IMG/VR virus record: IMGVR_UViG_3300032301_000382 | Coordinates: 1 to 25,082 of that record | Direction: 5' to 3' (one strand) | Length of the DNA stretch: 25,082 nucleotides | From: a virus | Lineage: Duplodnaviria; Caudoviricetes | In this document: piece after piece, positions 11,204-24,573 of the stretch | Position numbering within the stretch: position 1 is the first letter of the stretch | Layout of the letters: every line of letters starts with the position of its first letter | Made by a program: the position numbers and the translations under genes | The notes under the pieces: generated by a model | What the model saw: only the letters and a program-made list of their open reading frames with translations | Told to the model about the DNA's origin: nothing | Databases searched by the model: none

Positions 11204-11430
11204 GACAATCCCCATGCAACAGGCCAGTGCGTACACCTGGAGAATCTAAGAAATTTCGGGTGCGTGCTTGTTCCGGTGGCAAGTCCAAGACCATCCGCTT
11301 TGGCGATCCCAAAATGACCATTAAGAAGTCCATACCCGGACGGCGCAAGAGCTTTAGGGCTAGGCATCGGTGTGATAGCAACCCGCCTAGCAAGCTGACG
11401 GCTAGGTATTGGTCGTGCCGCAAGTGGTAG
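11200..11430 (+). CDS. Small basic phage protein (RFGD/RRKSFRARH family)
   Basis: KTIRFGDP.M.IKK..P.RRKSFRARH.C.....K.TARYWSCRKW; AGGAG RBS. Confidence 0.8.
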   Translation: MRQSPCNRPVRTPGESKKFRVRACSGGKSKTIRFGDPKMTIKKSIPGRRKSFRARHRCDSNPPSKLTARYWSCRKW

Positions 11431-11576
11431 TCAGTTGAAAAGCAAAAAGGCTTTAAAATCGACGTATTGCCACCCAGAAGCCTCGCCACGGGGTCAGGTA
11501 TCTGGAATCAATAAAACGGCTGAGGATAAAGAAGCACCCCCACGTTTGCGTTTAAATGCGGAATCCTATCGCCAAG

Positions 11577-11896
11577 CTACCGTTCTTGCGGCTCCTTTAG
11601 GCAACCGAGCGTGCTGTATTTCAATAGGCTGAACTACCGTTCGTATCCCTTATAGGACATAGCGTTCTTATAGCGTCCTTATAGAGTCGCCAGCCTACCG
11701 TTTGTTCTGCTCCCGCCACTTGGCCCAACGCTCCCGCTGAACCTGGCTAACCTTGGCGTAATGCTCCCGAGATAGTTTCCGGGCTTTCTGCGGACCTTTC
11801 ACGCTCCCGCCTTTTCTACCCTGGGCAGATAGGTATTCTTTTATGATTTGCTCTTTATTCATTCCTTATAGGCTCCTTATAGGCCGTGCTACCGTT
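11577..11896. repeat. Interspersed short repeat field (CTTATAG x5, CTACCGTT x4)
   Basis: CTTATAG at 11649, 11667, 11678, 11865, 11876; CTACCGTT at 11577, 11634, 11695, 11889. Confidence 0.75.
11695..11862 (-). CDS. Small basic GRKGG-motif protein, 55 aa
   Basis: Hand translation MNKEQIIKEYLSAQGRKGGSVKGPQKARKLSREHYAKVSQVQRERWAKWREQNKR; AAGGAG RBS. Not in the ORF track. Confidence 0.75.
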   Translation of the reverse strand: MNKEQIIKEYLSAQGRKGGSVKGPQKARKLSREHYAKVSQVQRERWAKWREQNKR

Positions 11897-11987
11897 TATA
11901 AGTCAAACCAAATCGCCCCGCTTCCGTTTATGGGCGGATGGCGGATTAGGTGAACCGGCCAAGGGGTGGAACCTTGGCGGGGGTTGA

Positions 11988-12158
11988 CTAAACTTTTTCG
12001 GTGCTTTCCTCGTCAATTCTAAATGATGTCCCGTCAAGCTCCTCCCATCTCTCCAGCCCTATGCCATCGGCAATTAAATGGGCTTCTTTTTCGCTTTCTG
12101 CATTTATTTCAATTTGATAATACTCCGTCCTTTCGCCTATTATCTTATACTTTTTCAT
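11988..12158 (-). CDS. Small early protein (DpnD/PcfM-like), 56 aa
   Basis: AGAAAGG RBS; MKKYKIIGERTEYYQIEINAESEKEAHLIADGIGLERWEELDG... Confidence 0.7.
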   Translation of the reverse strand: MKKYKIIGERTEYYQIEINAESEKEAHLIADGIGLERWEELDGTSFRIDEESTEKV

Positions 12159-12713: not shown

Positions 12714-12862
12714 GACGCGCTTTCCATAGTCATATAAACACCTAGGCTTTCCATGACTATTTCATGCGCCTCTTTTTCGCTTGTCGCCTCAAACTGAAGT
12801 ACCGGCATGGATAGCCCGTGACTATCTTTTTTGTCAAAAACTTCGACTAAGTAGGTTTTCAA
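12710..12862 (-). CDS. Small early protein, 50 aa
   Basis: TTG start overlaps the ardC stop (TTGA); AAGGAG RBS; MKTYLVEVFDKKDSHGLSMPVLQFEATSEKEAHEIV... Confidence 0.65.
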   Translation of the reverse strand: MKTYLVEVFDKKDSHGLSMPVLQFEATSEKEAHEIVMESLGVYMTMESAS

Positions 12863-13710
12863 GCCTTCTCCTTTCTCATGATATAATCATGCGCCGCTTG
12901 TGCCTTGGCGGCGGCGTAGAAAATCATTTTAGGATCATTCTTAAGGACGCGGGACCAGTTTTGACAATAGGCCACAGCGTTTTCCTCAACTTCAGCGCGA
13001 TTGATGCCCGATGATTGACACAAAAATTGCGCGCCAATCTCAGCGACCAACTCTTCCTTGGCATACTTTTCGCTGCCAAAACTTCCGCCCAAATCACGCT
13101 CTAGTCGCGACTCGTGGCCTGTTGAGTGTGTCAACTCATGGAACAGAGTGTCATAATATGCGCTTCCACTTGTCCAGTGCGCTGTTTTTGGCGGCATGTT
13201 TACAATGTCCTGACTTGGGACATAGCAAGCGCGCGATCCATCGACTATCCTTGGCGCGCGCGGCATGCGTTTAATTATCTCATCAGCCTCCACAATTTGA
13301 GCCACCGGTGCGGCGGCTGCCTCACGCTCAGGCATGCCATCGCACTGAGAAGCGTTAAACACTGTATAGTGTTTCATAAACCGAAAAGTTTTAGCCTTTT
13401 CGTTTCCTGTGCTTTCTCCTCCTTCATTCTCTCCATCCTTTTTTATGGTGGAATAGAATATCACTGGCCATCCTTTCTCCCCCTTTCTTACTTGCGCACC
13501 AAGTGCGGTGGCCTGTTTGTAAGTTAAAAAGCGCGGGTCAGGATAATGACTCGCCAAGTTTAACACCAGCGCGTTCACTCCTCTATATTCTGATCCGCTG
13601 ATTGCATTATGCGCGGCAACACTGCGCCAAGGCTTGCGCCAAGGTATCTCGCCTTTGCCTAGTGCTTCCACGATCTTCTCTACTATTCTGTTTGTGTCCT
13701 CTGTTTTCAT
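12859..13710 (-). CDS. ardC: ArdC antirestriction protein (ssDNA-binding plus zincin-like domain)
   Basis: IPWRKPW, Y.GVN.L.L, F.TYKQA...G.QVRKGEKG, YTVFNASQCDG, HELTHSTGH.SRL.R and FGS..YAKEELVAE. Confidence 0.95.
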   Translation of the reverse strand: MKTEDTNRIVEKIVEALGKGEIPWRKPWRSVAAHNAISGSEYRGVNALVLNLASHYPDPRFLTYKQATALGAQVRKGEKGWPVIFYSTIKKDGENEGGESTGNEKAKTFRFMKHYTVFNASQCDGMPEREAAAAPVAQIVEADEIIKRMPRAPRIVDGSRACYVPSQDIVNMPPKTAHWTSGSAYYDTLFHELTHSTGHESRLERDLGGSFGSEKYAKEELVAEIGAQFLCQSSGINRAEVEENAVAYCQNWSRVLKNDPKMIFYAAAKAQAAHDYIMRKEKA

Positions 13711-23588: not shown

Positions 23589-23741
23589 ATGAAACAAATC
23601 CACCTCACCGAAGAACAGGCCAAAAACACCATGCAACTCCTCGACCTCGCCGTGAAGGCGGGAGGTCTGAACGCCTCCGTCTTGGCTTTGCCGATTGCAC
23701 AGGCGATTGAGGAACAGCTAACGAAAGAGGAATCGAAATGA
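23589..23741 (+). CDS. Putative fibre assembly chaperone, 50 aa
   Basis: Hand translation MKQIHLTEEQAKNTMQLLDLAVKAGGLNASVLALPIAQAIEEQLTKEESK. Confidence 0.7.
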   Translation: MKQIHLTEEQAKNTMQLLDLAVKAGGLNASVLALPIAQAIEEQLTKEESK

Positions 23742-23917
23742 CATTTACAATCGAAATCACAGACCCATCACATCTTTCTGGAATCACCGCCGCCCGTGAG
23801 GCAAGGAACGCATCCTTGCCTGATGATTCAGGCGAGAGGCTCACTACGGATGCCGAATACGTGCAGTTCGTCATGGCCTCGGCGGCAGAGAGCTATTCCA
23901 AGCAGTATAGTGCATGA
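23738..23917 (+). CDS. Putative fibre-associated small protein, 59 aa
   Basis: ATGA coupling, GAGG RBS; MTFTIEITDPSHLSGITAAREARNASLP...DAEYVQFVMASAAESYSKQYSA. Confidence 0.7.
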   Translation: MTFTIEITDPSHLSGITAAREARNASLPDDSGERLTTDAEYVQFVMASAAESYSKQYSA

Positions 23918-23968
23918 GTGATGCCGTCCAGTTTGTCGCCCCGCCCGTGCCGGAGGGGATGTGAATTT

Positions 23969-24038
23969 GAAAACCCGCAGTAGCTTCGGCGAAACGGCCC
24001 CCCTCCCGCAGGGTGAGGGTGTGTTTTTCGGGGAGGGG
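23969..24038 (+). ncRNA. Putative cis-regulatory RNA (bulged-G/loop-E hairpin plus SD-sequestering stem)
   Basis: CCG-C-AGUA-GC-UUCG-GC-GAA-A-CGG (23975-23997); CCCCUCCCG can pair with CGGGGAGGGG, which contains the SD. Confidence 0.55.
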
Positions 24039-24047
24039 ATCTAGTCC

Positions 24048-24329
24048 ATGTGGAAAACCGTCGCCATCTGGCTCACCAATTTGAGTTTGCGTTTCTTGAT
24101 GACGCAAAAGGAGTACGCCTGTTTCAGGGAGGCGTTGAGGTTTGCAGGGGAGAACAACACGGTGGCGAGGGAAACGAAGTACATCGGGAAGGTGAAGCAC
24201 CTGCTATCCGTCAACCGCTCGATCAAGCGCATTGTGGAGGAGGGTCGGGATCGGGACGAGATTGTGGACGCTGTCGTGCATCTGGCCGTTGCGTTAAAGT
24301 ATCTGGAGGGTAGGGGTCGTGAGTCTTGA
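24048..24329 (+). CDS. Hypothetical protein
   Basis: GGAGG RBS; 93 aa, helical. Confidence 0.7.
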   Translation: MWKTVAIWLTNLSLRFLMTQKEYACFREALRFAGENNTVARETKYIGKVKHLLSVNRSIKRIVEEGRDRDEIVDAVVHLAVALKYLEGRGRES

Positions 24330-24573
24330 TGAGATCCATGAACTTCGGGAAAAATTCGGGTCGATGGCCGAGCGGCTGGCTAGGATGGAAGAACGTCAAG
24401 TTACCCTGATCGGCATGGTGGAACGCTCCCTATCCAACTTTGGCGACCTGTCCAATAGGGTGACTTCCCTAGAACACCTTAAAACCAAGATGCTCCTTGT
24501 GGCAGGCTCCATAGGTGCTATAGTCAGTGTGGTTTGGGATGCGATCCGCTCCCGGCTCACCCACGGAGGATAA
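24319..24573 (+). CDS. Coiled-coil protein with C-terminal TM (XhlA/holin-like)
   Basis: ERLARMEER and RVTSLE followed by MLLVAGSIGAIVSVVW. Confidence 0.7.
   Translation: MSLDEIHELREKFGSMAERLARMEERQVTLIGMVERSLSNFGDLSNRVTSLEHLKTKMLLVAGSIGAIVSVVWDAIRSRLTHGG

What the first reader, a model, noticed from the sequence alone, without database searches (positions are those of the whole stretch)
23969..24050. Riboswitch-like late-region RNA: sarcin-ricin-type bulged-G hairpin coupled to an anti-SD switch
Seen: CCG-C-AGUA-GC-UUCG-GC-GAA-A-CGG has the AGUA/GAA geometry of a bulged-G (loop E/sarcin-ricin) motif, capped by a C(UUCG)G tetraloop. Directly after it, the C-rich tract at about 23998-24008 has two mutually exclusive partners. 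One is a local hairpin with GAGGG (24015-24019), with GAAAAC at 23969 able to pair with the GUUUUUC tract. The other is CGGGGAGGGG (24029-24038), which holds the SD of the gene at 24048. Inference: a protein- or ligand-sensing translational switch in front of the holin-like and fibre genes. A ribosomal-loop decoy is a more speculative alternative. I do not recognise it as a named Rfam family.
Basis: partly seen in the sequence, partly recalled or inferred. Interest (0 to 1): 0.7.

Follow-up and report, generated by a model that had tools for sequence, protein, structure and literature searches.

The report
New small RNA of freshwater phages
The stretch is a copy of an undescribed, roughly 65-base folded RNA carried by several unrelated freshwater phages; one arm resembles a hairpin of ribosomal RNA, it is probably not a switch for the gene beside it, and its job is still untested.

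Summary
The hairpin is real; the riboswitch reading is mostly not supported. Window 23968-24030 belongs to an RNA family that Rfam lacks: a bulged-G (AGUA/GAA) hairpin, a variable second hairpin and a U-tract. The 2-bp cap is Watson-Crick in all 65 distinct copies, in four pair types; the second hairpin covaries at 8 of 8 pairs. The RNA is an accessory insert (2 of 80 relatives of the next gene carry it). It precedes many unrelated genes, with an SD-like word in only 10 of 85 contexts. In two AT-rich phage groups it lies between a promoter-like motif and, mostly, a new promoter, like a stand-alone small RNA. In this ~37-kb phage group a short reading frame, in either of two frames, runs through it and preserves translational coupling (48 of 73). 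Its geometry matches 23S rRNA helix 13 and the 457 hairpin, not the sarcin-ricin loop. Best reading: a terminator-ended small RNA that binds a host protein; expression and partner are unshown. The scan's earlier notes hold no look-alike.

The parts
23968..24030 (+). Whole RNA element (class A of the new family)
   Evidence: Covariance model R1 hit, 65.9 bits (the window copy was in the training set); single copy in the 25-kb record
23972..23974 (+). AAC, 5' strand of a possible 2-3 bp closing helix P1 (extends to 23969 only in some copies)
23975..23997 (+). P2: CCG/CGG stem, C-A mismatch, AGUA/GAA bulged-G loop, 2-bp cap, UUCG loop
   Evidence: Cap pairs WC in 65 of 65 distinct copies, four types; loops all Y-U-N-G; outer stem invariant in 61 of 61
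24001..24019 (+). P3: variable hairpin (terminator-like stem); C-rich subtype in this genome
   Evidence: 8 of 8 pairs with changes on both sides; 47 of 52 distinct P3 segments fold with z < -2
24020..24028 (+). U-tract with an invariant G (24023), also 3' strand of P1
   Evidence: GTTTT follows in 91 of 97 core matches although the search did not ask for it; not listed by the simple terminator scan in this genome
23952..23960 (+). First copy of GGAGGGGAT (ancestral gene end); left edge of the 80-nt insert
   Evidence: Most close relatives run from this word straight into the stop and the ATG of the 24048 gene
24032..24040 (+). Second copy of GGAGGGGAT: SD-like word and end of the spanning short frame; can pair with the C-tract
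23914..23964 (+). Relay frame 1 (16 codons), remnant of an upstream gene end; start overlaps the stop of ORF 23738-23917
23961..24044 (+). Relay frame 2 (27 codons) running through the RNA; GTG overlaps the stop of frame 1, stop lies 3 nt before ATG 24048
24048..24329 (+). 93-aa ORF of unknown function, translationally coupled to its upstream frame
   Evidence: No Pfam or PHROG family; 157 unnamed homologues; coupled in 51 of 52 distinct junctions
24319..24573 (+). 84-aa ORF, XhlA/holin look-alike
   Evidence: Atlas feature score 0.93 to an XhlA cluster, a lead only; no Pfam hit

Best explanation
An accessory small RNA of about 60-70 nt, shared by several freshwater phage lineages that probably infect Verrucomicrobiota. 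SHOWN (by comparison): the fold is a bulged-G hairpin with a covarying 2-bp cap, a variable second hairpin and a U-tract; it is independent of the neighbouring gene; in the small phages a short frame of free sequence keeps ribosomes running across it. INFERRED: the second hairpin plus U-tract ends transcription; in the AT-rich phages the RNA is made from its own promoter, starting 2-3 nt before AAC; in this phage it sits inside the late mRNA, where a coupled ribosome on the spanning frame melts the terminator and any anti-SD helix so that downstream genes are still made, while uncoupled transcripts stop and leave the element at a 3' end. GUESSED: the invariant arm binds a host protein that recognises bulged-G hairpins of the 23S helix 13 / 457 type (a ribosomal or assembly protein, or an RNA-sensing defence enzyme) and so acts as a decoy or scaffold. 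Odds: conserved RNA structure 0.97; made as or processed to a small RNA 0.7; protein-binding arm acting in trans 0.55; specifically an rRNA mimic 0.25.
For: Cap WC in 65 of 65 distinct copies (GC/GC 38, CC/GG 20, CT/AG 5, GA/TC 2); 91 of 91 core matches with the U-tract are WC. A longer class B (5 distinct) adds one pair, C-G in four and U-A in one, and has GNRA loops. P3 covaries. Promoter-like ATAAATA ends 7-8 nt (4 loci) and GTGTAA 10-11 nt (8 loci) before AAC, and the same words precede start codons elsewhere in those loci; a TTGAC(A/T)-N16-TANNNT-N6-start follows in 11 distinct contexts. One contig has two copies 1 kb apart, each with its own motif upstream and promoter downstream; one copy is followed directly by tRNA-His. 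Spanning frame in 69 of 73 contexts without promoter motif, coupled at both ends in 48 (42 in one frame, 6 in another; 23.1 expected after shuffling the interior), and in 0 of 12 promoter-bearing contexts. Accessory: 2 of 80 loci, 1 of 43 long contigs, 0 of 5 near-complete ones. E. coli 23S has AGUA, 2 bp, loop, GAA at 241 and 457; the SRL at 2654 has 1 bp, GAGA, GAC. Helix 13 is a bulged-G motif (PMC4227780, passages); the motif is a protein recognition site (PMC5737476, PMC7247131, passages). Terminase's three best hits are Akkermansia phages, 35-38%.
Against: No expression data: the three runs found gave only 150-350-nt contigs, and the one covering the element is probably DNA. No partner protein is linked: flanking genes vary. 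The promoter groups were picked because I saw the motifs, so their counts are not a blind test; only one of those contigs is long (148 kb), the others are 0.3-3-kb loci. The window has no promoter before the element and the terminator scan does not list it. P1 and the outer P2 stem never covary, and class B breaks the outer P1 pair in 3 of 5. Strand of P3 cannot be told from energy (27 of 52). Copies are related and recombine, so counts overstate independence. R1 finds no match above 11 bits in five 23S loci: likeness to rRNA is limited to a ~20-nt hairpin that also recurs in RAGATH-18 and may simply be the smallest stable cap for this motif. Host is not proven (one search found no prophage).
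Confidence: 0.55

Rival explanations
1. A cis-acting terminator or attenuator module: the bulged-G hairpin binds a protein or pauses RNA polymerase and tunes read-through at P3; in small phages the spanning frame makes termination depend on translation.
For: Always on the sense strand just after a stop codon or promoter; followed by new promoters or, for class B in L552, by a convergent gene; U-tract slightly longer in promoter-bearing copies (median 8 versus 7 of 9); read-through is needed for tRNA-His in L432.
Against: A terminator placed directly after a promoter and before a second promoter controls nothing downstream; no conserved antiterminator; downstream genes unrelated; P3 energy does not differ between groups (p = 0.12).
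Confidence: 0.2
2. One reading: a ligand- or protein-sensing translational switch in which the C-tract hides the SD of gene 24048.
For: Anti-SD fold is 2.3 kcal/mol more stable than the three-way fold in the window; 8 of 10 SD-bearing contexts are in the C-rich subtype; L300 shows one change on each side that would keep this helix (seen by eye).
Against: 75 of 85 contexts have no SD-like word; 44 of 85 have the ATG within 8 nt of the U-tract; 78 of 80 relatives express the same gene without the element; P2 is compatible with both folds, so nothing couples it to the switch; 12 of 20 C-rich contexts with an ATG lack the SD word.
Confidence: 0.07
3. A processing site or small ribozyme whose cut leaves a leaderless message for the next gene.
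For: These phages use leaderless-type promoters; ATG often lies 3-8 nt behind the U-tract; compact invariant core.
Against: The short spacing is explained by the relay frame's stop overlapping the ATG; no Rfam ribozyme match; stand-alone copies have nothing to release.
Confidence: 0.07
4. A strict sarcin-ricin loop decoy for elongation factors or SRL-cutting nucleases.
For: Shares the bulged-G motif that SRL-cutting toxins recognise (PMC5737476, PMC4227780, passages); class B has a GNRA loop.
Against: Four bacterial SRLs have 1 bp, GAGA and GAC; the phage RNA has 2 bp, GAA and, in all 65 class A copies, a YUNG loop.
Confidence: 0.07
5. The conserved unit is a leader or arrest peptide encoded by the spanning frame.
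For: Same frame in 61 of 69 spanning frames; the loop's Y-U-N reads as Phe/Leu codons.
Against: 8 contexts use another frame with an unrelated peptide; the usual frame is closed by a stop in 11 of 12 promoter-bearing contexts; cap changes alter residues but keep pairs; class B shifts the frame.
Confidence: 0.03

Closest known systems
23S rRNA helix 13 (E. coli 241 hairpin) and the hairpin at E. coli 457
   Same: AGUA, two base pairs, apical loop, GAA; helix 13 also has the 5x4 internal loop on a C-rich stem. Class A GC/GC equals the 241 cap; CC/GG and class B (GNRA loop) equal the 457 cap.
   Different: Apical loop is YUNG or GNRA instead of the GGCGA pentaloop; free-standing RNA with a terminator; no wider rRNA similarity. 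That bL35 and uL15 contact helix 13 is recalled and was not found in print.
Sarcin-ricin loop (23S helix 95)
   Same: Bulged-G / S-turn motif.
   Different: 1 bp plus GAGA and GAC in four bacteria versus 2 bp plus YUNG and GAA.
RAGATH-18 RNA (RF03064)
   Same: Lysinibacillus members hold the identical 19-nt hairpin.
   Different: There it caps a long interrupted stem; the phage RNA scores no RAGATH-18 hit. Its link to IS607 TnpB is recalled.
Ribosomal-protein leaders that mimic rRNA (e.g. eL15 leader with a bulged-G-like module; PMC7247131, passages)
   Same: Possible rRNA mimicry through a bulged-G module, sometimes with a U-tract.
   Different: No ribosomal-protein gene seen downstream; not tied to one gene class; phage-borne.
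Bacterial Y RNAs (YrlA; PMC4201824, PMC12135203, passages)
   Same: Small phage-borne RNAs; CGAA word in 40 of 65 copies.
   Different: CGAA lost in 25 of 65; shorter than 80 nt; no tRNA-like module; no Ro60 gene in two complete carrier genomes.
Translation-coupled attenuators and intrinsic terminators
   Same: Hairpin plus U-tract crossed by a short reading frame.
   Different: Peptide is free to change frame; no antiterminator; an invariant structured arm precedes the terminator.

Membership tests
Bulged-G (loop E / S-turn) motif | AGUA opposite GAA between two helices | tested here: met
   inner helix covaries, outer helix invariant
Bulged-G (loop E / S-turn) motif | GUA base triple and S-turn in three dimensions | not testable with these tools
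   Needs probing or a structure
Sarcin-ricin loop | One C-G pair and a GAGA tetraloop above the motif | tested here: not met
   2 bp and YUNG (65 of 65) or GAAA/GCAA (5 class B)
23S helix 13 mimic (works-like claim) | 5x4 loop, 2-bp cap on a C/G stem | tested here: met
23S helix 13 mimic (works-like claim) | GGCGA apical loop | tested here: not met
23S helix 13 mimic (works-like claim) | Binds the proteins that bind helix 13 | not testable with these tools
   No binding data
Translational riboswitch | Conserved position before a functionally coherent gene class | tested here: not met
   Many unrelated downstream genes, a tRNA, or promoters
Translational riboswitch | Conserved SD-sequestering alternative helix | tested here: not met
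   SD-like word in 10 of 85 contexts; possible only in the C-rich subtype
Translational riboswitch | Ligand binding changes the fold | not testable with these tools
   Needs in-line probing
Intrinsic terminator (P3 part) | Stable hairpin followed by a U-tract | tested here: met
   Family; the window copy is weak and was not listed
Intrinsic terminator (P3 part) | Transcripts end in the U-tract | tested here: inconclusive
   Only short contigs available
Bacterial Y RNA | GNCGAAN0-1G motif | tested here: not met
   CGAA absent in 25 of 65; two bases, not 0-1, before the final G (motif from PMC4201824)
Bacterial Y RNA | Ro60/TROVE gene nearby | tested here: not met
   0 of 2 complete carrier genomes; the 148-kb contig could not be searched
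RAGATH-18 or any Rfam 15 family | Reaches the family's gathering score | tested here: not met

The most novel reading that the evidence does not exclude
Unrelated phages of one freshwater host group trade a minimal RNA gene that copies a bulged-G hairpin of the large ribosomal RNA (helix 13 / 457 type) and use it as a decoy for a host ribosomal, assembly or defence protein; small phages can carry it inside the late operon only because a throw-away reading frame relays ribosomes across its terminator. A second phage family found here puts the same hairpin in place of a tRNA anticodon arm, which hints at a wider class of rRNA-hairpin decoys.
Probability: 0.22. Interest if true: 0.88.

Novelty: new variant of a known kind. 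Interest (0 to 1): 0.62.

Why it matters
It is a well-supported, unnamed phage RNA family that moves between phages of very different size and base composition, which is how counter-defence and host-takeover genes behave. At 65 nt with a 17-nt invariant core and natural compensatory variants it can be made and tested directly. If it binds a protein that normally reads an rRNA hairpin, it would be a new way for phages to act on the host translation or defence machinery. The relay frame shows how a non-coding module with a terminator can be tolerated in an operon that depends on translational coupling, and explains the apparent switch without a ligand.

Tried and rejected
Rfam at gathering score on the window and 25 loci, and at E <= 10 on 23850-24120: only a 12-bit sX5 match on the other strand. 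Energy folding alone: uninformative for P2. RNA runs: three runs with shares 0.05-0.07, contigs only; no conclusion on expression, ends or habitat. Cultured-phage DNA search: none for the window copy; eight weak hits for L237, of which the best, read, is a P3-like terminator without AGUA. Relaxed patterns for covariation in the outer stem or P1 gave no new member. Cellular genomes: five scans; only L452, a 4-kb portal-bearing contig in an Omnitrophota bin, scores as a distant member (38 bits). L089 (40 bits) is a second outlier without AAC and GTTTT. My early guess that the Lysinibacillus hits were T-boxes was wrong: they are RAGATH-18. Y RNA idea tested and dropped. attC-like DNA hairpin considered for the AAC...GTT ends and rejected by inspection: the 3' box does not fit and loops are RNA-type. 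Strand test by P3 energy failed. An RNase E-type cut in the U-rich 5' flank was considered; T is enriched at -3 to -6 but no test was possible. Host search by capsid protein failed. R1 finds nothing in Akkermansia phage Chambord. Literature: ten searches found no description; none found print support for bL35/uL15 at helix 13. Six of 97 core matches lacking the U-tract were dropped as non-members before the family counts; contexts with short flanks were dropped.

Full report
Setting. The window is a 25-kb piece (67% complete) of a phage with terminase, portal and major capsid genes on the + strand; two complete relatives are 36-37 kb. The three best terminase hits among cultured phages infect Akkermansia (35-38% identity), so the host is probably a verrucomicrobium; no prophage was found. 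The finding lies between ORF 23738-23917 and ORF 24048-24329.

Observation. The letters are as described. In the window alone they do not stand out: the loose motif occurs 3 times against 1.53 expected and the region folds with z = -0.22. The energy model does not form the bulged-G hairpin, as expected for non-canonical pairs (established knowledge), so the case rests on comparison.

It is an insert. Of 80 loci with a relative of the 24048 gene, two carry the element. Most close relatives run from GGAGGG(G/C)AT through a stop codon to the ATG; the window has 80 extra bases between two copies of that word. Whole-record searches gave 1 carrier among 43 long contigs and 0 among the 5 that are at least 90% complete. 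Complete carriers hold one copy.

It is a family. Sixty-five distinct copies all have a Watson-Crick 2-bp cap, in four types, although the expression did not ask for pairing (the pattern did force G or C at the first pair). All loops are Y-U-N-G. Of 97 distinct core matches with flanks, 91 are followed by GTTTT and all 91 are paired; the other 6 were dropped. The second hairpin differs freely in sequence and folds in nearly all cases (47 of 52 with z < -2). On the plain alignment 81.7% of cells pair; on the model-fitted one, which leans to the structure, 90.8%, with changes on both sides at 8 of 8 P3 pairs and 2 of 2 cap pairs. The CCG/CGG stem and AAC/GUU never covary, so P1 is unproven; the longer GAAAAC pairing is not conserved. 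A class B of 5 distinct sequences adds a pair (C-G four times, U-A once) and has GAAA or GCAA loops. The copies are related and mosaic, so these counts are not independent events; at least three double changes are needed to link the four cap types (inference). Rfam has no match.

Not an anti-SD switch in general. Downstream genes are many and unrelated. An SD-like 4-mer lies between U-tract and ATG in 10 of 85 contexts with an ATG (95 examined), and 44 of 85 have the ATG within 8 nt. Against my reading: 8 of those 10 are in the C-rich P3 subtype, and in the window the anti-SD fold is 2.3 kcal/mol more stable than the three-way fold. The helix may therefore form in this subtype.

Stand-alone copies. 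In two AT-rich groups (30-42% G+C) whose held flanks share no homologue with 26 window ORFs, a fixed word precedes the element: ATAAATA 7-8 nt before AAC in 4 loci and GTGTAA 10-11 nt before in 8; the same words precede start codons at matching distances elsewhere in those loci, and several GTGTAA copies also read as TTGACT-N17-TAA(G/T)AT. I chose these groups after seeing the words. That ATAAATA is a T4-type late promoter is recalled. A promoter of the form TTGAC(A/T)-N16-TANNNT-N6-start follows in 11 distinct contexts. L349 holds a class A and a class B copy 1 kb apart, each framed this way. L432 continues into tRNA-His; the 148-kb contig has four tRNAs 2.7-3.5 kb downstream. This is the layout of a small RNA gene starting 2-3 nt before AAC (inference). 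One gene beside the element in L340 is 49% identical to one beside the class B copy in a small phage, which suggests a shared gene pool. In small phages class B lies at another locus, after the replication genes and facing a convergent gene.

The relay. In the window a 16-codon frame (23914-23964) overlaps the stop of the upstream gene, a 27-codon frame (23961-24044) overlaps its stop, crosses the whole element and stops 3 nt before ATG 24048. Among 73 class A contexts without promoter word, 69 have a spanning frame, 59 start at the stop of an upstream frame and 48 are coupled at both ends, against 23.1 when the interior is shuffled; 0 of 12 promoter-bearing contexts are coupled. Eight spanning frames use a second reading frame with an unrelated peptide, so the peptide is not the conserved unit. 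Coupling is the rule for this gene: 51 of 52 distinct junctions. The duplicated purine word is thus the retained gene end. Ribosomes on this frame would melt P3 and the anti-SD helix, allowing read-through and re-initiation without a ligand (inference from established coupling and attenuation mechanisms).

What the arm resembles. A class B pattern hit an archaeal 23S rRNA. In E. coli 23S the hairpins at 241 and 457 have AGUA, two pairs, a loop and GAA; the sarcin-ricin loop at 2654 has one pair, GAGA and GAC, as in three other bacteria. Helix 13 is described as a bulged-G, S-turn motif (PMC4227780, passages), and the motif as a protein recognition site (PMC5737476, PMC7247131, passages). The two commonest caps, GC/GC and CC/GG (58 of 65), are those of the 241 and 457 hairpins. 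But the model finds no larger likeness to rRNA, the helix 13 pentaloop is replaced, and the same hairpin recurs in RAGATH-18, so convergence on a small stable motif is a fair alternative. Contacts of bL35 and uL15 with helix 13 are recalled only (searches found no source). Y RNA membership fails.

What is not shown. Expression, ends and partner: the runs found were uninformative. The window copy has no promoter and is not listed as a terminator.

Novelty. Ten literature searches found no description. PMC10690425 (seen: listing, supplement list, word searches of 4 of 6 held files) gave no hit, but its alignment archives and three large files could not be read and may hold the motif as an anonymous candidate. 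PMC5737381 (two passages; supplements not searched), PMC4201824 and PMC12135203 (passages) describe nothing that fits. The scan's notes hold no look-alike; one note on another phage describes a different, 420-base RNA with loop-E-like arms (unchecked).

Verdict. Observation confirmed; interpretation partly supported. A new phage small-RNA family built on a known motif: structure 0.97, small RNA 0.7, protein-binding role in trans 0.55, rRNA mimic 0.25. Interest 0.62.

Noticed in passing
L091:962-1088 and 19 other viral loci (L092, L093, L101, L105, L109, L112, L113, L115, L118, L121-L123, L125, L128, L129, L133, L136, L141, L143): A second unnamed family: about 110-nt tRNA-like cloverleaf with CCA end, T-arm and long variable arm whose anticodon arm is replaced by a helix-13-like bulged-G hairpin with UUCG loop; strong TTGACA/TATAAT-type promoter right upstream; 9 of 31 pairs covary. 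No ARAGORN call in 7 tested, no Rfam hit in 3 tested, carries the GNCGAAN0-1G Y-RNA word but no TROVE gene in two records. One host contig is 345 kb. Worth its own study.
   Followed up: partly
window 23914-24047 and L001-L080: The late operon is mosaic at this junction: many different upstream genes end in the same short remnant (DAVQFVAPPVPEG) that keeps coupling to the 24048 gene.
   Followed up: yes
L237, L349, L356, L358, L368, L369, L373, L382, L439, L444, L450: Promoters of fixed geometry TTGAC(A/T)-N16-TANNNT-N6-start point to leaderless mRNAs in both AT-rich phage groups; one literature search found nothing on this for Verrucomicrobia.
   Followed up: partly
window 11430-12000: About 570 nt with few long ORFs between converging early and middle modules, with repeated words (CTTATAGG, ACGCTCCCGC, CTACCGTT); class B copies sit at the equivalent place in L539, L552, L567. 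Possible origin or RNA region.
   Followed up: no
window 12862-13710 (-): ArdC-like anti-restriction gene.
   Followed up: no
L452 and L450: Further structured-looking stretches beside the element: a tRNA-like 3' half downstream in L452 and a nested hairpin upstream in L450 (by eye); no Rfam hit in L452.
   Followed up: no
L110, L111, L149, L156: The same AGUA-GC-UUCG-GC-GAA word lies in a conserved stretch before an ATG in gut-type viral loci; no Rfam hit in two tested.
   Followed up: no
L532:701-743 (Enterococcus phage VRE9_1): A terminator nearly identical to one P3 type, without the bulged-G arm.
   Followed up: partly
L575:2990-3035: Class-B-like bulged-G hairpin with GAGA loop on a longer stem followed by a U-run in a 125-kb viral contig; not scored by R1.
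   Followed up: no
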